A DNA stretch of 31,559 bases from a virus. Taxonomy: Duplodnaviria; Caudoviricetes. This document shows, piece after piece, positions 1,651-28,582 of this stretch (within the stretch, counting starts at the first letter, position 1; every line of letters starts with the position of its first letter). Location of the stretch: IMG/VR virus record IMGVR_UViG_3300033109_000098, positions 1 to 31,559 of that record; one strand, given 5' to 3'. A program made the translations under genes and the position numbers. The notes below the pieces were generated by a model, which saw nothing but the letters and a program-made list of their open reading frames with translations, did not search any database and was not told the origin of the DNA.

Positions 1651-1936
1651 AGTCGATCTCCAGGAAACGGTTGTCGGCGTCGTTGAACTTCATTTTCTTG
1701 ATGCGCTTCAGCTCCATGACGAAGAGTCCGTCGGTCGAGGTCAGTGTAAAGGTCGCGTAGTACTCACGATCAGCGTATTTGGTCTCGGTCAGCGGGCTGC
1801 TGATGCCGGTGCCCTTGGCGCTCTTGCCGAGCCCGACCTGGGACAGCACCGGATCGGGGATCGCCGACGGATTGAGTGGATCCCGGGACGCCGGCGCCTT
1901 GGCCAGCCGCTGAATGTTGTCGCGCGTGTCGGTCAT
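1634..1936 (-). CDS. Small tail-associated protein (100 aa)
   Basis: ATGA-coupled to the upstream 1045-aa gene. GISSPLTE...REYY...STDGLF motif resembles small tail genes in proteobacterial siphophage tail modules. Confidence 0.65.
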   Translation of the reverse strand: MTDTRDNIQRLAKAPASRDPLNPSAIPDPVLSQVGLGKSAKGTGISSPLTETKYADREYYATFTLTSTDGLFVMELKRIKKMKFNDADNRFLEIDFADKP

Positions 1937-4900
1937 GTCTCGATCACCGTGTTCGTCACCAGCGACAGATCGGTATAGACGCCCGCAACGGCCGCCGCGT
2001 CATCGATGCGCGCCCAGAAGGTCACCGCATTGGCCACCCCGCTCAGGATCGTCGTCGCCAGCGCCAAACTGGCGCCCGCGGTGGCGGCAGTCAATCCCGC
2101 CTGACTGGTGGCCAGTTTGATCGCCGTCGCCGGCTCGCCGCTGGCCGGCGCCGAGTCGGACGGCGATACCGCGATCTCATCCACCCCCGGGTTGCTCGAG
2201 GCCTGGATCTTGGTTCGCGTGTCGGTCGGCAGGTCGAGCTGGTAGGCCTGCGCATGATTCACCGTCGCCGGGTTGCGGAAATTCTCGGCCACGCCCGGCA
2301 TCTGGACGCGGAAGCCGTTTACCTTCTGCGCATAGCCAGCGGCCGCGTTGTAGGCAGGGTTGGCCACCGACGTGCTGTCGGTGCCATTGGTGACCGAATA
2401 GGAGGCCGTCGCGCCGACCAGGAAGCCCATCTGCGTGTAGTCGTAGACGTAGTTCGTCACGTTGCCGATATGGGTCAGCAGGTTCGGCAGATCGGTCGAC
2501 CAGGAATCGGTTCCGACATCGAGTGCGGGCTGCGCCGGCGGCGTCAGCGCATCGGGCGTAAGGATCCCGCCGGCGGCAATGCCGGACAGCGCCAATGTGA
2601 TGGTGCTGATCGCCGAACCGGCATCGATGTCGAGCTTGCCCTGGACGCGCGAGATCTTTCCAGACGCCTGCAACGCCGCGGTATTGAGCGTAGCCGCCAT
2701 CGTGAGGTCGGCCTCTGGCAGGCAGGGTACCGAGAACGTCACGGCGGCCTTGCGGTGGCTGGCGTAAATCATCGACTTGGCCATGTCGAGCAGGTTCTGG
2801 ATCGCCGCATCCGACACGGCGCGCGTCATCGTGCCGGCATAGTCGATCTCGCCCGGCGCGTTGAGCGGCACGGTCACGGTGAAATCGGCCTCCCACTGAT
2901 TGGGCGTCCAGTCCGATTGCAACGCTCCGCGCAGGGGCTTTGCCAGAGCACCGTTGGCTGCGATGCTGGTGGGCGCGGTCACAGTCAGGGCATAGCTTTC
3001 GGTCACCGCCTGCGCGTGGCGCTGCGCCAGAGAGGCGGTGAAGTTGGCCACTCCGCTGGTCACCACGTAATAGCCCGATGGGCTGGCCACCGCAATGTGT
3101 GCCGGCGGGCTGCCGAACGATTGATACAGCACTTTCCAGCCGCTTCCGGCCAGCGCCGACTCGATCTCATCCTGACTCGGATACTGGTAGCTCGACTGCC
3201 ATGCCTCGGCCGTGTAGGCCGACTTGCTCCAGCCGATCGATGCCTGGCGCTGCCGGCAGCGGTAGTATCGGTATTCGAAGGCGATGTCGACCTGGTTCAC
3301 GATCTGGTTGCGCTTGGGCAGGTCGATCGAGGGGCTGGCGTCGAGCACGTCTGCCTCGGTGAAGGTGCGCCACACCGCCAGGCCATTCCATTCCGTGACG
3401 CGTGGACCCGACATCGGACCGCTGTCGAGCGAGGCCGTGCGCGAGGACATGCGGGCCTGTGCATAGGCCCAGCGCTCGCCGATCGCGCCCGACACCGCCT
3501 CCGAATAGGTGCCACCGCACAAGGCATCGATGCTGGCCACCGGCAGGGCCGCCACGCGGTTCTGAAGATCCGAGGTGCAGGTAAATCCGACCGTGCGCTT
3601 GACCGGGTCGAAGGTGGCCACGTCGACCACGCCGGTGAACACCCGGGTATGCATCGACAAGGCGCCCACCAGGCGCACCACGTCGATCGACACCTCTTGC
3701 CCGGTCCAGGTGGTCGGGCTCACCGATCCGGCCGCCGGCCGCAGCGTGAAATCGGCGACGCGTGAGGCGCCCTCCTCCGCATCCCAGCTGATGGTGCCGG
3801 TCAGATTCGCCGACACGTCGACACCGCCCAGCATGACCTGCGCCGTCCAGGTGGTCGTCTCGAGCGTGTTGAGCACATTGATCGACACCGGCGCGCTGAT
3901 GCTGCCCGTATCGGCCACGCTGACGGCGATCGGCGCGCTAATGCTGCCGCTCGGGTTGGATACAGTGACGGTGATCGGCGCGGATACCGCCTCGGCGATG
4001 ACGCTGTAGACCAGCTGCGCGGTATCGTTTGATACCTCCAGTGTCTTGATGCCCGCCGGAAGCGTGATACTCCAGGTCGTCTCGAGGTTCTGCACCGTGA
4101 GCGACGAAATATTGCCATTGCCGAACGAAACCGGCGTGTTTCCGCAGACATAGATCGAGCCGTTGATCTTTTGCAGGATGACGGCCGTTTCAGGCGCATG
4201 CACGGCGGACCAGTCGGTATCCGTGCCGATCTGGATCAAGGTTGCGGATGATGCCGTATTGCCCTGCCCCAGCTGGTATGATCCGCCGTCGCCAGCGGCC
4301 CATACCGTTCCGGTCGTCTTGAGCGCATAGCTATTGAAAGAACTCGCCGCAACTTTCGACCAGTTCGTGTCCGTCCCGACCTGTCGCGGCGAAGTCGAGG
4401 TCGTCGAGGATCCATCACCCTGCTGGCCATAGGTATTGCCACCCCAGCCATAGAGCGTACCATTGGCCAGCACCGCCATCGTGTGCGACAGCGATAGCGA
4501 CAGATCGGAGACGACCGCTGGCAGCGTGATCGCCTGCGGCGTCAGATAATGGGTGGTCGTCGTCCCGAGACCGAGCAGGCCATTCGTGCCGTTGAATCCC
4601 CAGCCATACAGCACATTCGAGGTATCGAGCGCGAACGCGCGCACCGCGCTGTCGTCGCAATACAGCTTGGAAAAGCTGTGGACAAAGGCGATCTGCGTCA
4701 GCGTCGTGATCGGGCTGGTCGTGTTGTTCTGCGCGCACTGCCCATGATTGTTGAGGCCGCACGCATAGATATTGCCATTGGTCTTGAGCGCGATCGTGAA
4801 ACCGTTGCCGACCGCTACGTCGGCCCAATCGGTATCGATTCCAATCTGCGTCCAGGCCGAATAGCTCGCATTCGGAAGGCCCAGCTGTTTGGAGCTGTTG

Positions 4901-5070
4901 TCGCCCACGCCCCAAAGTGTACCGTCCGCCATGATACCTACCGCGAACCCCTGCCCAATCTTGATTTTCAGCCAGGTTCCCGGGATCTGCGCATAGGTGT
5001 AATGCGCGACGGAATCCCCCAGCCCGAATTCCCCGTTGGTGTTCGCCCCGGTTGCGTAGATCGTCGCCAT
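1933..5070 (-). CDS. Tail tip/hub protein with N-terminal RCC1/BLIP-II-like beta-propeller (1045 aa)
   Basis: First ~350 aa are ~50-aa repeats (W..I..G..F...I..DGTLW..G.N..GQLG). The central region (LGGVDVSANLTG...RVFTGVVD) resembles siphophage hub proteins. Lies downstream of the tape measure and distal tail genes. Confidence 0.75.
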   Translation of the reverse strand: MATIYATGANTNGEFGLGDSVAHYTYAQIPGTWLKIKIGQGFAVGIMADGTLWGVGDNSSKQLGLPNASYSAWTQIGIDTDWADVAVGNGFTIALKTNGNIYACGLNNHGQCAQNNTTSPITTLTQIAFVHSFSKLYCDDSAVRAFALDTSNVLYGWGFNGTNGLLGLGTTTTHYLTPQAITLPAVVSDLSLSLSHTMAVLANGTLYGWGGNTYGQQGDGSSTTSTSPRQVGTDTNWSKVAASSFNSYALKTTGTVWAAGDGGSYQLGQGNTASSATLIQIGTDTDWSAVHAPETAVILQKINGSIYVCGNTPVSFGNGNISSLTVQNLETTWSITLPAGIKTLEVSNDTAQLVYSVIAEAVSAPITVTVSNPSGSISAPIAVSVADTGSISAPVSINVLNTLETTTWTAQVMLGGVDVSANLTGTISWDAEEGASRVADFTLRPAAGSVSPTTWTGQEVSIDVVRLVGALSMHTRVFTGVVDVATFDPVKRTVGFTCTSDLQNRVAALPVASIDALCGGTYSEAVSGAIGERWAYAQARMSSRTASLDSGPMSGPRVTEWNGLAVWRTFTEADVLDASPSIDLPKRNQIVNQVDIAFEYRYYRCRQRQASIGWSKSAYTAEAWQSSYQYPSQDEIESALAGSGWKVLYQSFGSPPAHIAVASPSGYYVVTSGVANFTASLAQRHAQAVTESYALTVTAPTSIAANGALAKPLRGALQSDWTPNQWEADFTVTVPLNAPGEIDYAGTMTRAVSDAAIQNLLDMAKSMIYASHRKAAVTFSVPCLPEADLTMAATLNTAALQASGKISRVQGKLDIDAGSAISTITLALSGIAAGGILTPDALTPPAQPALDVGTDSWSTDLPNLLTHIGNVTNYVYDYTQMGFLVGATASYSVTNGTDSTSVANPAYNAAAGYAQKVNGFRVQMPGVAENFRNPATVNHAQAYQLDLPTDTRTKIQASSNPGVDEIAVSPSDSAPASGEPATAIKLATSQAGLTAATAGASLALATTILSGVANAVTFWARIDDAAAVAGVYTDLSLVTNTVIET

Positions 5071-10940: not shown

Positions 10941-10990
10941 GCGCGGCGCTCCTGGTCAGCGGTTTGGATGGGTTGCGAGAAGATCTTCAT
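10937..10990 (-). CDS. Putative 17-aa leaderless uORF MKIFSQPIQTADQERRA
   Basis: ATG at the edge of the duplicated promoter element. Its TGA overlaps the ATG of the head-tail gene (ATGA). Confidence 0.35.
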   Translation of the reverse strand: MKIFSQPIQTADQERRA

Positions 10991-11041
10991 GCCTGCCAGC
11001 GTGGCAGGCATCGTGTGCAATTTTTAGGAAAAAAATTGCAG
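10988..11041 (-). promoter_or_regulatory. Late promoter element copy 1 (activator dyad plus -10 inside a hairpin)
   Basis: 50/54 identical to 16554-16607. Dyad TGCAATTTTT-N5-AAAAATTGCA (11016-11040) and inverted repeat ATGCCTGCCA-GCG-TGGCAGGCAT. Confidence 0.75.
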
Positions 11042-15992: not shown

Positions 15993-16556
15993 TCAGAACC
16001 TCACCACGACGCGGCCGGGGGAGACGCCATTCAGCAAGGCCTGGGCGACGTTCTCTTTCTGTACCTCACGCTCGTAATGCGTGATCGCGTCTTTCAGTTC
16101 CTGCATGCTGCGGAATGTGGTGCTGCGGCCGTCGACCGAGGTCGACAGCACGGTGATCGTCGAGTCGGCCACCATGCTGGCCAGCGCAGTGCGCAGGTTG
16201 GCCAGCGAGATCATGTTGGCGCTGCGGCCGTCGAAGTTGGCGGCCTGGGTGAGATCCGGCAGGATCTTGATCGGGTTCGATTCGAGCGTGGCGCGATCGC
16301 CGGTGCTGGTGTTTTCGACGTAGCCGACCAGCGTGGCATCGCCGGCCACATAGGCGGCGGTGTCGGTGGACTTGAGGTCGACGGTATGCAGCGTGCCGAC
16401 GCCGGTCGAGGTGATGGCGACGGCGGCGCCCGAGGCGTACAACAGCCGATACTTCAGCGCCCAGCCATCGGCGGCGGAAAACTCGGGCAGCTCGCGCTGC
16501 CAAGTGACGCTGTCACCCGCGCGGATCGCACTCGGCTCGGTTGTCTGGATTCCCAT
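15993..16556 (-). CDS. gpW-like head completion protein with N-terminal extension (187 aa)
   Basis: C-terminal SVDGRSTTFRSMQELKDAI motif. EPSAIRAGDSVTW N-terminus. Directly precedes the portal. ATG 16556 sits at the edge of promoter copy 2. Confidence 0.75.
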   Translation of the reverse strand: MGIQTTEPSAIRAGDSVTWQRELPEFSAADGWALKYRLLYASGAAVAITSTGVGTLHTVDLKSTDTAAYVAGDATLVGYVENTSTGDRATLESNPIKILPDLTQAANFDGRSANMISLANLRTALASMVADSTITVLSTSVDGRSTTFRSMQELKDAITHYEREVQKENVAQALLNGVSPGRVVVRF

Positions 16557-16607
16557 GCCTGCCAGCGTGGCAGGATGGGTGTGCAATTTTTAGGAAAAAA
16601 ATTGCAG
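16554..16607 (-). promoter_or_regulatory. Late promoter element copy 2
   Basis: 50/54 identical to 10988-11041. Dyad at 16582-16606. -10-like CACGCT 7 nt before ATG. Confidence 0.75.
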
Positions 16608-16630
16608 CGGGGTGGGATGGTGTAAAAACC

Positions 16631-16679
16631 CGTCAATATCCGATAGCACACCTGCGCAGGTGTCTATTGCTTGTTGGGC
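16631..16679 (+). other. Short attC-like hairpin (cassette insertion site)
   Basis: CGTCAAT-N5-ATAG[C]ACACCTGC/GCAGGTGTCTAT-N5-GTTGGGC: a stem with one extrahelical C, ending in a GTTRRRY box. The R'' box is degenerate. Confidence 0.55.
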
Positions 16680-16897
16680 GTCATGTCTTGCCGCAACCGA
16701 AACACCTCAATCGGGTAAGCGTTGTCACGCTCCGCCGCCATGAAGTGCGCCCCGATGTTGCAGATTCTCCCGCGCTGGTCAACGCAGATCGTGTGTTCTG
16801 CCCGTACTTCGTGGAAGCGCCAGATTCGCTGGGCCTTGTTAATCCAGTCCTGTTTTGAGCGAAACTCAAACAGCTTCTCTCCGTGCTCAATCTGCAT
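16664..16897 (-). CDS. Hypothetical cassette protein (77 aa)
   Basis: SD GGAGAG before ATG. Stop TAG lies just outside the cassette, in the left hairpin. Confidence 0.75.
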   Translation of the reverse strand: MQIEHGEKLFEFRSKQDWINKAQRIWRFHEVRAEHTICVDQRGRICNIGAHFMAAERDNAYPIEVFRLRQDMTPNKQ

Positions 16898-16984
16898 GCC
16901 GTTCTCTCCAGGGCGTCACGCCCAACAAGTCCATCGAGAGGGAAGCTCAACAGCTACGCTGTTTCGCTCCCCTCATGTCGTTCG
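16674..16984 (+). mobile_element. Integron-type gene cassette (311 bp) with inverted ORF
   Basis: Bounded by G|TTGGGCGT (16673) and G|TTACAT (16984). The left end is a 9-bp perfect complement of ACGCCCAAC at the attC R'' box. Confidence 0.8.
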
Positions 16985-16990
16985 TTACAT
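16920..16990 (+). other. attC: Canonical integron attC site (71 bp)
   Basis: R'' GCCCAAC, 5-nt spacer, CAT[C]GAG[A]GGGA pairing with TCCCCTCATG, AACAGC-TAC-GCTGTT tip, 6-nt spacer, R'-like GTTACAT (one mismatch to GTTRRRY). Confidence 0.85.
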
Positions 16991-17305
16991 CCACATGGCA
17001 TCGTCGATCGCGCGGTGCCCACACTTCACGCAGACCGCCGATCCCCCGCCGCAGCCGGTCGCAGCATCGACGATCTCGACCCATTTCGAATAGTCGTGAT
17101 CGGTTCCGTCCGGGCAGGTCGGCCGGGGCCCGCACTGGAAGATGGCCAGCGCCTCGGCAGGCTCCTCGTCTTCCGGCGCTTCATCCTCGAGGTCGAAAAC
17201 GGCACCGCATGCGGCGCAGCGTTGCAGGCGCTCGTCGCCACCAGGCAGATCGTCGCCCTCGTCATAGAGATAGGTCGTTTTGCATCCGCATTTTGGGCAG
17301 GCCAT
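16985..17305 (-). CDS. Cys-rich Zn-finger-like hypothetical protein (106 aa)
   Basis: CPKCGC, CAAC and CVKC motifs. SD GAGGA. Stop TAA lies within the attC R' box. Confidence 0.75.
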   Translation of the reverse strand: MACPKCGCKTTYLYDEGDDLPGGDERLQRCAACGAVFDLEDEAPEDEEPAEALAIFQCGPRPTCPDGTDHDYSKWVEIVDAATGCGGGSAVCVKCGHRAIDDAMWM

Positions 17306-17313
17306 TTCGTTCC

Positions 17314-17529
17314 TCAGTTTCCGCCTAGCATTGCGCCGCAGGCGTTGCAGCCGTATGCCAGGTTATCGTCCCAAAGATTGTTGCTCCCGCAGTGCGGGCA
17401 GCGCCCCGTGAATGCACCGGTCGGCTCATTGTTCGGGTTATTCTGTCGTCTCAACCGTGCCAGCGCTTGCGGATCATCGCGGGGGATATTTGTCTTGAAA
17501 GGGCTACGGTTTTGCTCTGTGTAGGCCAT
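17314..17529 (-). CDS. Zn-ribbon hypothetical protein (71 aa)
   Basis: CPHC...CNAC motifs. SD AAGGAG. Confidence 0.75.
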   Translation of the reverse strand: MAYTEQNRSPFKTNIPRDDPQALARLRRQNNPNNEPTGAFTGRCPHCGSNNLWDDNLAYGCNACGAMLGGN

Positions 17530-17583
17530 CGTTTTCTCCTTGGCTTGGGATCGGGCCGGAAAAATCCGCCCTTCGATGAGGGA

Positions 17584-17823
17584 TTAGCAGGAACGGCTCA
17601 TCGGTCCGCCAGTGTTCTTCGGTACGGCGCGCACGCCATCACCGATAACATCAAGGTCATCCTCATCAACCCACCAGCCATCCGGCACTTTCTTATCATC
17701 ACCCACGGGCGGCTGGATGTAATAGCGATTGCAGCCATAGAGGTTTTCACTTCTTGCCGTCACCACACCGCGCAATTTGGTCACTTTCGCCTGTACTTCT
17801 TTCCCAAGCTCACACTTAAACAT
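17584..17823 (-). CDS. Small phage hypothetical protein (79 aa)
   Basis: SD AGGAGA before ATG 17823. GVVTARSENLYGCNRYYIQP...WWVDE motif, a recurrent phage ORF type. Confidence 0.75.
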   Translation of the reverse strand: MFKCELGKEVQAKVTKLRGVVTARSENLYGCNRYYIQPPVGDDKKVPDGWWVDEDDLDVIGDGVRAVPKNTGGPMSRSC

Positions 17824-17907
17824 CCTGTTTCTCCTATAAGTAAAAAATCCTGCAAACATTTCCAGCATGTCGCGGCTGGACATAATTCCACGTTACTTTT
17901 TCATCGT

Positions 17908-18171
17908 TCACCCTTTCCGTAGTCGCTTAAGTTGATAGGCCCGGCTGACGCTGATCCCGAGGACCTTGGAGATCTTTTGCGCGTCGGCCTCGTCGCCGAG
18001 CTCGGCCAGGGCCTCGAGGTGGCTGCGCTTTTTCATGACGGGCACATAGGGCCGCGTGCCGCCGAAGGTGCCGCACAGCACGCGCTTGAACTTTTCCCAC
18101 TGGTCGTCGGGGATCTCGCGCAGCTCGGCGCGGATGGCGGCGAGCATGGCGAGCAGGTTATCTTCGGCCAT
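17908..18171 (-). CDS. Mor/C-family transcription activator (87 aa)
   Basis: FGGTRPYVP motif followed by a C-terminal HTH (ISKVLGISVSRAYQL), as in Mu Mor/C. Overlaps the terL end. Confidence 0.75.
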   Translation of the reverse strand: MAEDNLLAMLAAIRAELREIPDDQWEKFKRVLCGTFGGTRPYVPVMKKRSHLEALAELGDEADAQKISKVLGISVSRAYQLKRLRKG

Positions 18172-23626: not shown

Positions 23627-23883
23627 AGGTTGGACGGTAGGACGGCAGGTTGGACGGCTGAAACCCGCGCAAATACTGGATTTGTCCAACCTTCTAACCT
23701 CGTCCAACCTAAAAACGTGATGGCACATGCGCGCGTGTGCGTGCGTGCGCATGCGTGCCTGCGCGCCTACGTGTGTGCGTGCGGGAAAAGGTTGGACGAG
23801 GTTGGACGGTTGGACGGATGCCCTATCCATGCGGGTTTGCGCCGTCCAACCTTTTCCGGGCCGTCCAACCTCAGGTTGGACGG
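23627..23883. repeat. Iteron-like repeat array / putative replication origin
   Basis: About 12 copies of (A)GGTTGGACG(G) in both orientations around an alternating purine-pyrimidine tract, directly downstream of the primase-helicase. Confidence 0.8.
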
Positions 23884-27570: not shown

Positions 27571-27610
27571 ATTATAAGCATACTTATTCAGGAGTAGCAA
27601 GCATACTTAC
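27571..27610. promoter_or_regulatory. OR-like operators overlapping the PR-like promoter
   Basis: ATAAGCATACTTAT (27574-27587) and CAAGCATACTTAC (27598-27610). Minus-strand TTGCTA-N18-TATAAT. Confidence 0.85.
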
Positions 27611-27635
27611 ACGCGCCACAAATACCATGGGCGCC

Positions 27636-28463: not shown

Positions 28464-28542
28464 TCGGCCGCCATCCCGCTTCACCCATCCCGCCCGATTA
28501 GGTCGCGGACGCTCCGTCCGCCTCCCGTCTTTCGCGAAAAAT

Positions 28543-28582
28543 GTAAGTATGCTTGCATTTCTGCTGTTAGCATGCTTATACT
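28543..28582 (+). promoter_or_regulatory. OL-like operators and PL-like promoter
   Basis: GTAAGTATGCTTG (28543-28555, exact reverse complement of 27598-27610) and TTAGCATGCTTAT (28567-28579). TTGCAT-N18-TATACT. Confidence 0.85.

What the first reader, a model, noticed from the sequence alone, without database searches (positions are those of the whole stretch)
16631..16679. Minimal ~49-bp attC-like hairpin that appears to be the cassette landing site
Seen: CGTCAAT-ATCCG-ATAG[C]ACACCTGC-GCAGGTGTCTAT-TGCTT-GTT. This is a 12-bp palindromic stem with one extrahelical C on the same strand and arm as in the neighbouring attC, with symmetric 5-nt spacers, ending exactly at the crossover. It is shorter than classical attCs and sits just upstream of the head-operon promoter. 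Inference: a phage-resident recombination site (reduced attC or dedicated acceptor). It could also act as a transcription stop for the island.
Basis: partly seen in the sequence, partly recalled or inferred. Interest (0 to 1): 0.7.

Follow-up and report, generated by a model that had tools for sequence, protein, structure and literature searches.

The report
Phage-borne integron landing site (attI)
This short DNA palindrome in a phage matches a family of sites that sit beside gene-capturing integron enzymes in bacterial chromosomes, and it recurs in many other phages in front of different backwards-facing gene cassettes, so it is likely a docking site through which phages collect accessory genes, not a shrunken cassette hairpin.

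Summary
The sequence is as described, and 'landing site' holds, but it is not a reduced attC. It belongs to a conserved family, TA(G/T)RCACCT-N4-AGGTGT(C/A)TAT-N5-G|TTRRRY with an upstream box near -51. With GTT left out of the search pattern, 11 of 26 viral contexts had GTT at exactly this distance. The same site lies beside integron integrase genes or remnants at 8 of 16 and 7 of 11 further chromosomal sites, with forward cassettes: the position and layout of attI. At 21 of 24 viral sites an inverted gene ends on the site; at 0 of 16 chromosomal ones. The bulged C, the R'' triplet and arm pairing are not conserved, and no relative carries it at this head-operon slot. The window has no intI but ends inside the early region; a related Thiobacillus prophage carries intI, another attI type and inverted cassettes. 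Recombination is untested. Phage CALINs are published (PMC9892861); this scan noted inverted, integrase-less phage cassettes on other DNA before.

The parts
16619..16679 (+). attI-family site (top strand +), crossover predicted between G16673 and T16674; longer than the 49 bp of the finding
   Evidence: Only strong hit in the window of a matrix built from 22 viral sites including this one (39.7 bits); 45 of 56 bases identical to L304 and 41 of 56 to L294; family beside intI in chromosomes
16619..16629 (+). Distal box (GGTGT at -54, GTAAAAAC at -51); DR2-like by position, degenerate here
   Evidence: GTTATACAC-type box at -51 or -53 in 14 of 16 chromosomal sites; GTAAAAC-type at -51 in L271, L294, L300, L302; the window copy missed the one-mismatch test and is assigned by position
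16642..16653 (+). Left arm, DR1-like direct copy of the core (GATAGCACACCT); holds the extra C16647
   Evidence: Arm present in all family members; extra base only in WIN, L304, L294, L306
16658..16667 (-). Right arm, inverted L box of the simple site; also supplies the TAG stop (16664-16666) of the 77-aa gene
   Evidence: 5 nt from GTT in all members; related GTCTAC/GGCTAC-N5-GTT upstream of 14 further intI genes among 28 evaluable (counted by eye)
16673..16679 (+). R box GTTGGGC; bases after G come from the cassette
   Evidence: 9-bp inverted repeat with the cassette's own R'' at 16920-16926
16674..16984 (+). 311-bp gene cassette, gene inverted relative to the attC top strand
   Evidence: Bounded by GTTGGGC and GCCCAAC plus attC
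16664..16897 (-). 77-aa cassette gene of unknown function
   Evidence: No PHROG or Pfam hit; 50 homologs, 30 of 50 keep the DM..N motif encoded by the cassette end and then diverge; homolog L361 ends on a full attC instead of attI
16920..16990 (+). Canonical attC (R'' GCCCAAC, 5-nt spacer, extra C, 6-nt spacer, R' GTTACAT)
   Evidence: Pattern scan; fold z -3.0 / -3.4
16985..17883 (-). Three small genes (106, 71, 99 aa) of the inserted island; the first ends with TAA on the attC's R'; no attC closes this unit
   Evidence: ORFs, PHROG unknown-function hits, no attC on either strand in 16984-18000
17908..18171 (-). Small conserved gene after the terminase; HTH/Mor-like by eye and recall only; right border of the variable slot
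   Evidence: Conserved in relatives; no Pfam hit
16554..16607 (-). 54-nt repeat before the head-tail gene, likely late promoter; left border of the slot
   Evidence: 93% copy at 10988-11041; conserved in relatives
15993..16556 (-). Head-tail joining protein, first gene of the head operon
   Evidence: phrog_5774, E 1.4e-25

Best explanation
The site is likely an attI-type integron acceptor, of a family found beside integron integrase genes in betaproteobacterial (Thiobacillus-family-rich) chromosomes, carried by a lambda-like phage, and the adjoining 311-bp cassette was likely inserted at its G|TT by an integron integrase. Shown: sequence family, position next to intI in chromosomes, a four-box layout (distal box, direct box, inverted L box, R box), different cassettes behind it, inverted genes in phages. 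Inferred: IntI binds the site as double-stranded DNA; the palindrome arises because a direct and an inverted binding box face each other; a circular cassette recombines through the folded bottom strand of its attC; because the gene is inverted it is read by phage transcription running toward the site and stops on it. The integrase would come from the host chromosome or from an intI in the part of this phage that the window lacks. The site probably reached this slot as part of a block from another phage locus, since relatives lack it here.
For: GTT at +5 in 11 of 26 contexts when not in the pattern, P about 1e-13 at 1/64. 16 sites in 12 of 401 genomes and 13 sites in 9 of 61 genomes of G001's family, 0 control hits. 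intI or remnants upstream and divergent at 8 of 16 and 7 of 11 new sites; three score 491-499 bits on TIGR02249, cut-off 265. Integrase-first: 3 of 28 evaluable intI loci carry the full form, 14 more a related simple site, null maximum 3.4 bits. First cassette closed by an attC with matching R'' at 15 of 24 viral sites, 13 exact. L275 and L301 are identical for all 1350 bases left of the G and carry different complete first cassettes. Inverted gene ending at -9 to +1 at 21 of 24 viral, 0 of 16 and 0 of 12 chromosomal loci. Arm pair -26/-9 is Watson-Crick in only 12 of 24 viral sites, no covariation. Related prophage with intI and inverted cassettes.
Against: No recombination was measured. No intI in the window or near any viral site (flanks up to 3 kb). 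The window copy is closer to phage copies than to chromosomal ones (best chromosomal 32 of 56 bases) and its distal box is degenerate. 8 of 16 chromosomal sites have no intI similarity within 1.5 kb. The L275/L301 difference ends on the right inside a gene start, not at an attC, so that swap could be homologous recombination. The intI in the related prophage sits at a different attI type. Chromosomal copies are near-perfect palindromes and 11 of 16 have AAC 4-5 nt left of the arm, so a folded form is not excluded; the 12 loci mostly lack it (by eye). 9 of 24 viral sites had no closing attC by my simple scanner. Viral members were picked by eye from pattern hits.
Confidence: 0.75

Rival explanations
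1. An attI by descent but passive here: the attI-cassette block was moved into this slot by homologous or illegitimate recombination from another phage's early region, and attI/attC now act only as short homology linkers or as relics.
For: Relatives lack the site at this slot and fill it with unrelated genes; relative L062 has an empty slot and the same 26-nt core elsewhere, next to its integrase; L275/L301 right junction is not an attC; no intI in the window.
Against: Cassette ends are exactly complementary here and at 13 of 24 viral sites, as expected of circular IntI intermediates; L001 has an inverted cassette in the same slot at a different end site; boxes keep their spacing in unrelated phages.
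Confidence: 0.3
2. A minimal attC recombined as a single-stranded hairpin with C16647 as the extrahelical base.
For: Extra C on the same strand and arm as in the neighbour attC, and 9 nt from the bulge-opposite position to GTT in both; all members keep a 4-nt loop that could fold; AAC near the R'' position in 11 of 16 chromosomal copies.
Against: AAT not AAC and one base out of register; extra base in 4 of 24 viral and 0 of 16 chromosomal sites, and it is C only here; AAC near R'' in 1 of 24 viral sites; no covariation; fold not better than shuffles; no cassette lies to its left; the family sits where attI sits.
Confidence: 0.07
3. The palindrome is mainly an operator for a regulator (of intI in chromosomes, of downstream genes in phages) and cassettes land beside it at a chance GWT (attG-type) site.
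For: Sequence-conserved inverted repeat with a 4-bp centre and an upstream half-site at -54 or -44, ten bases apart; an AT-rich phage family has the palindrome without GTT (14 loci); attG needs only GWT (10.1101/2022.09.11.507474, passages).
Against: GTT sits at one fixed distance in phages and chromosomes; the right arm coincides with the L box seen upstream of many other intI genes that lack the palindrome.
Confidence: 0.1
4. An intrinsic terminator that ends the island's transcript before the late promoter.
For: Other fills of this slot end in hairpins (L059, L063, L066); the minus-strand RNA can fold, -16.7 kcal/mol for 75 nt, no shuffle control.
Against: No terminator-like hit on the minus strand; the one hit is on the + strand and 3 hits were found against 2.0 +/- 1.4 expected; the U run begins 14 nt after the stem; elsewhere the site sits in the middle of co-oriented operons.
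Confidence: 0.05

Closest known systems
attI sites of integrons (attI1 of class 1; PMC12901181, PMC8946536, PMC3146285, passages read)
   Same: R box GTTRRRY with crossover after G, an inverted L box 5 nt upstream, two further boxes within about 55 bp; lies between a divergent intI and the first cassette in the chromosomal copies; sequence conserved within a class
   Different: Own sequence (TATACACC/GGTGTATA type); the direct box lies so close to L that they form a 4-nt-loop palindrome; in phages no intI beside it and cassette genes are inverted; binding and double-stranded use not tested
Phage CALINs and integrons (Qi et al. 2023, PMC9892861; main text read, supplement not)
   Same: attC-bounded cassettes in phage genomes without intI; an attI at the start of a CALIN was noted in Shewanella prophage M16-3; DNA methyltransferase cargo also seen here
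   Different: That paper's main text names no recurrent attI family across phages and does not describe genes inverted against attC; here one attI family recurs in about 20 phage contexts at different loci
attC sites
   Same: Imperfect palindrome ending in GTTRRRY, extra C on the top strand in this copy
   Different: No conserved RYYYAAC, wrong left spacing, extra base not conserved, sequence rather than structure conserved
attG sites and SALINs (Loot et al., 10.1101/2022.09.11.507474; passages and sections 32-33 read)
   Same: Single cassette with one attC far from intI; GWT at the crossover
   Different: attG are opportunistic genome sites with a GWT core; this is a 55-bp conserved four-box site also found next to intI
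Phage morons (recalled, no call)
   Same: Accessory genes in a variable slot between conserved late genes
   Different: Part of this insert has integron cassette anatomy

Membership tests
attI (integron primary site) | R box GTTRRRY whose bases after G change with the first cassette | tested here: met
   Different RRRY and cassettes behind the same site; 9-bp match to the cassette's own R'' in the window
attI (integron primary site) | Inverted L box a few bases upstream (simple site) | tested here: met
   GTGT(C/A)TAT 5 nt before GTT in all 40 sites (partly fixed by the patterns); related box upstream of 17 of 28 intI loci chosen by integrase
attI (integron primary site) | Sequence conserved within a class and located between divergent intI and first cassette | tested here: met
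   For the family: 8 of 16 and 7 of 11 chromosomal sites. For the window copy itself no intI is adjacent
attI (integron primary site) | Accessory direct repeats (optional outside class 1, PMC3146285) | tested here: inconclusive
   Box at -51/-53 in 14 of 16 chromosomal sites; degenerate in the window; binding untested
attI (integron primary site) | Recombined as double-stranded DNA by the cognate IntI | not testable with these tools
   Only indirect: no covariation between arms
complete integron | intI next to attI | tested here: not met
   No IntI hit in the window or in the viral loci with this site; the window ends inside the early region, so the phage as a whole is untested
complete integron | Cassette genes oriented with the attC top strand, read from Pc | tested here: not met
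   Gene inverted here and at 21 of 24 viral sites
attC | R'' RYYYAAC complementary to R', 5 nt before L'' | tested here: not met
   CGTCAAT, 9 nt to the extra C against 8 in the neighbour; AAC near that place in 1 of 24 viral sites
attC | Conserved extrahelical base in L'' | tested here: not met
   Extra base in 4 of 24 viral and 0 of 16 chromosomal sites
attC | Structure conserved over sequence; stable bottom-strand fold | tested here: not met
   z -0.28; variable pair Watson-Crick in 12 of 24 (inner pairs were fixed by the pattern and say nothing)
attC | Bottom-strand-selective recombination | not testable with these tools
   Needs a conjugation assay
CALIN / SALIN | attC site(s) without a neighbouring intI | tested here: met
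   One attC, no intI: SALIN by definition, but with a recognisable attI-family site
attG | Opportunistic GWT site unlike attI and attC | tested here: not met
   Site is a conserved family found next to intI
intrinsic terminator | Stem directly followed by a U run on the transcribed strand | tested here: not met
   No minus-strand hit; U run 14 nt away

The most novel reading that the evidence does not exclude
Temperate phages of Betaproteobacteria run their own mirror-image integrons: a host-type attI has spread as a portable 55-bp platform to many phage loci, phage accessory genes (methyltransferases, Mom-like proteins, small unknowns) circulate as inverted cassettes that are read from phage promoters and stop on the site, and the integrase comes from the host or, as in the Thiobacillus prophage, from an intI inside the phage early region. 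This would be an active, site-specific route to phage mosaicism and morons.
Probability: 0.45. Interest if true: 0.82.

Novelty: new variant of a known kind. Interest (0 to 1): 0.64.

Why it matters
Where the small accessory genes of phages come from, and how they are swapped, is usually put down to homologous or illegitimate recombination. A defined attI family shared by host integrons and about 20 phage contexts names a substrate and candidate enzymes (chromosomal IntI of the L326 type, prophage IntI of L378), so the question can be tested with a standard attC x attI assay. It also offers an origin for some integrase-less cassette arrays and a search motif for landing sites that attC-based scans do not look for.

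Tried and rejected
Rfam: no relevant family, four weak unrelated hits below threshold. blastn of the 61-bp site against annotated phages and plasmids: no match. Exact 16-bp palindrome in viral contigs: 9 loci, only L146 related. Pattern (right half only): 73 loci, most unrelated. Conservation at the head-operon slot: rejected. The terminase query was translated in a wrong frame, so its terminase columns were not used. Idea that the C in the L box is a phage invention to make a stop codon: C in 18 of 24 viral against 1 of 16 chromosomal palindromic sites and used as TAG stop at 11 of 18, but GTCTA/GGCTA is common in other chromosomal attI, so not phage-specific. The automatic orientation call mislabelled the window and L266 as forward (19 inverted, 4 forward, 1 none); the count by stop position is used instead. 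Search for excised or empty forms: the only holder was X1, possibly the source of this DNA, with one contig across the stretch and no joint at the site; contigs drop rare variants. No RNA holder listed; RNA runs X2 and X3 laid nothing; no evidence either way. Cassette-gene relatives in viral contigs: 4 loci, only L361 next to an attC. IntI of L378 against annotated phages: 9 records, all under 60% identity. Earlier notes by place and by sequence: none. Paper searches showed no description of this attI sequence or of inverted phage cassettes at attI; subscription papers and figures are not covered and Qi et al.'s supplement was not read, so the chromosomal attI may already be in print.

Full report
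Setting. The window is a lambda-like phage fragment with all late genes on the minus strand: terminase, portal, capsid-protease, head-tail joining protein, primase-helicase and Cro-like gene. The held genome is the window alone, and it ends inside the early region. Between a small conserved gene after the terminase (17908-18171; HTH/Mor-like by eye and recall, no family hit) and a 54-nt repeat before the head-tail gene (16554-16607) lies a lower-GC island with four small minus-strand genes.

Observation. The finding's letters are exactly in place. The neighbour at 16920-16990 is a canonical attC with + as top strand and folds far better than shuffles; the finding does not, although a 12-bp stem is uncommon in this window (2 found, 0-1 in each of 10 controls). 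The DNA between the two is a 311-bp cassette whose ends are complementary for 9 bp. Its 77-aa gene runs against the attC top strand and stops on a TAG inside the finding's right arm. In attC register the finding fails on the left: AAT instead of AAC, 9 instead of 8 bases to the extra C.

Not conserved at this slot. Relatives found through the head-tail protein have 59 to 2000 bp in the slot. Seven distinct ones (L009, L010, L011, L056, L060, L062, L067) are empty and have no hairpin; I read 19 relatives in full there. A matrix of the site found nothing above 12 bits in L001-L137. L001 (78% identical protein) has an inverted cassette in the same slot, docked at a different sequence.

A conserved family elsewhere. 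The exact palindrome led to L146, on the same contig as the empty-slot relative L062, with the same 26-nt core, GTT and an array of inverted cassettes next to the phage integrase. A pattern without GTT gave 45 loci in 26 contexts (25 if truncated L147 is merged); 11 had GTT exactly 5 nt after the arm, P about 1e-13 at 1/64; one of them (L185) looks like chance. A looser pattern gave 49 loci in 42 contexts; 22 had the unselected left flank, and 21 of these 22 also had the unselected T and A, against 8 and 3 of the other 20. My working set of 24 viral sites is the window, 21 of those 22 (L281 dropped, 216 bp downstream) plus L301 and L306, picked by eye. Their flanks are mostly unrelated and include integrases, terminases, recombination and replication genes (87 of 185 predicted ORFs scanned). 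L274 and L287 are chromosomal in type, and L287 matches chromosomal L316.

It is the attI position of chromosomal integrons. The motif occurs at 16 sites in 12 of 401 genomes of G001's order and 13 sites in 9 of 61 genomes of its family, with no control hits; G001 is the Thiobacillus sp. 65-1402 MAG. Eight of the 16 have intI or a remnant upstream and divergent: three intact (491-499 bits, cut-off 265), one frameshifted, four remnants; 7 of 11 new family-level sites do too. Cassettes follow in the forward direction. Starting from the integrase instead, 3 of 28 evaluable intI loci have the full palindromic form (the same three) and 14 more, by eye, a related L box 5 nt before GTT. So the palindromic type is a minority attI class within the order. 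Layout: a box at -51 or -53 (14 of 16 chromosomal sites), a direct box near -30, an inverted L box, and R. attI1 has L, R, DR1 and DR2 within 56 bp of the crossover and is bound as double-stranded DNA (PMC12901181, PMC8946536; passages); direct repeats are optional in other classes (PMC3146285; passages).

Against a mini attC. The extra base occurs in 4 of 24 viral and 0 of 16 chromosomal sites; the loop is self-complementary in 2 of 40; the one freely varying arm pair is Watson-Crick in 12 of 24 viral sites without covariation. Against my reading, chromosomal copies are near-perfect palindromes and 11 of 16 have AAC 4-5 nt left of the arm, so folding is not excluded; most loci lack that AAC.

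Phage use. An inverted ORF of 45 aa or more ends between -9 and +1 at 21 of 24 viral sites and at 0 of 16 chromosomal sites (two too short to judge) and 0 of 12 loci. Several are recognisable genes (three DNA methyltransferases, a Mom-like protein, an RNase H-like protein). A closing attC with matching R'' was found at 15 of 24 viral sites, 13 exact. L275 and L301 are identical for 1350 of 1350 bases left of the G and again for 970 bases further right, and carry different first cassettes; the right junction is not an attC, so this shows variability at the site, not the enzyme. A homolog of the 77-aa gene in L361 ends on an attC rather than attI, and 30 of 50 homologs keep the motif encoded by the cassette end.

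Which enzyme. No IntI hit in the window or beside viral sites. G001 holds a prophage syntenic with this phage whose early region carries, by my reading, three inverted cassettes, a different attI type, an intact intI (465.6 bits) and then the phage integrase next to tRNA-Val; intI points the same way as the cassette genes. G001 also has an orphan copy of our site and a second intI 81% identical to the L326 enzyme. Both a host enzyme in trans and a phage enzyme outside the window are therefore open. Non-cognate attI/IntI pairs are reported to be inefficient (PMC8946536, passage), which favours the L326 type.

Mechanism, steps marked. Shown: family, position beside intI, variable cassettes, inversion in phages. 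Inferred: IntI binds the boxes on double-stranded DNA, takes the folded attC bottom strand of a circular cassette and exchanges at G|TT; inversion lets phage transcription read the gene toward the site; the block reached this slot from another locus. Untested: activity, strand use, expression.

What is known. Phage CALINs, complete integrons in prophages and an attI at the head of one phage CALIN are published (PMC9892861; main text read, supplement not). attG and SALINs explain single cassettes at chance GWT sites (10.1101/2022.09.11.507474; passages, sections 32-33). PMC3108266 (passages) gave nothing on this site. Nine searches found no account of this attI sequence or of inverted phage cassettes at attI, within the limits of the library. 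Earlier notes of this scan describe inverted, integrase-less phage cassettes and spare attI copies on other DNA; I had reached my reading before seeing them and did not check them. Verdict: real, a new variant of a known kind; landing site yes, reduced attC no.

Noticed in passing
L378:10200-14520 (G001:C171): Prophage related to the window's phage carries an intact intI inside its early region, after a different attI type and about three inverted cassettes, before the phage integrase and tRNA-Val: a complete mirror-image integron in a prophage.
   Followed up: partly
L001:3238-3305 and L310: An identical 68-bp attC body sits on two different cassettes in two phages, each with its own matching ends; bears on how cassettes are made.
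   Followed up: no
L270 and L275 right flanks: 251 identical bases (most of a small gene plus its attC) at different array positions in otherwise unrelated phages.
   Followed up: partly
G307, G040, G157, G415, G425, G448, G449: Two or three copies of the site per chromosome assembly, some far from any intI yet followed by cassettes.
   Followed up: partly
L148-L188 group: An AT-rich phage family (14 loci) has the same palindrome without GTT, between a leftward ribosome-binding site and a TATAAC-like box; perhaps an unrelated operator.
   Followed up: no
window 16554-16607 and 10988-11041: 54-nt repeat, 93% identical, with an inverted repeat around TTCCT and a second hairpin at the start codon; conserved in relatives; likely late promoter.
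   Followed up: partly
window 23647-23852: 64-bp inverted arms with several GTCCAAC repeats around a purine-pyrimidine tract, just after the primase-helicase gene; origin candidate; trips attC pattern scans on both strands.
   Followed up: no
window 27573-27611 and 28542-28580: 39-bp inverted repeats with AAGCATACTTA motifs flanking the immunity region and a DUF4124 gene; operator candidates.
   Followed up: no
window 1933-5070: 1045-aa tail-region protein with RCC1 repeats.
   Followed up: no
L059, L061, L063, L065, L066, L007, L077 (slot before the head-tail gene): The slot is a moron hotspot with unrelated fills; several end in hairpins, L066 in a long palindrome.
   Followed up: partly
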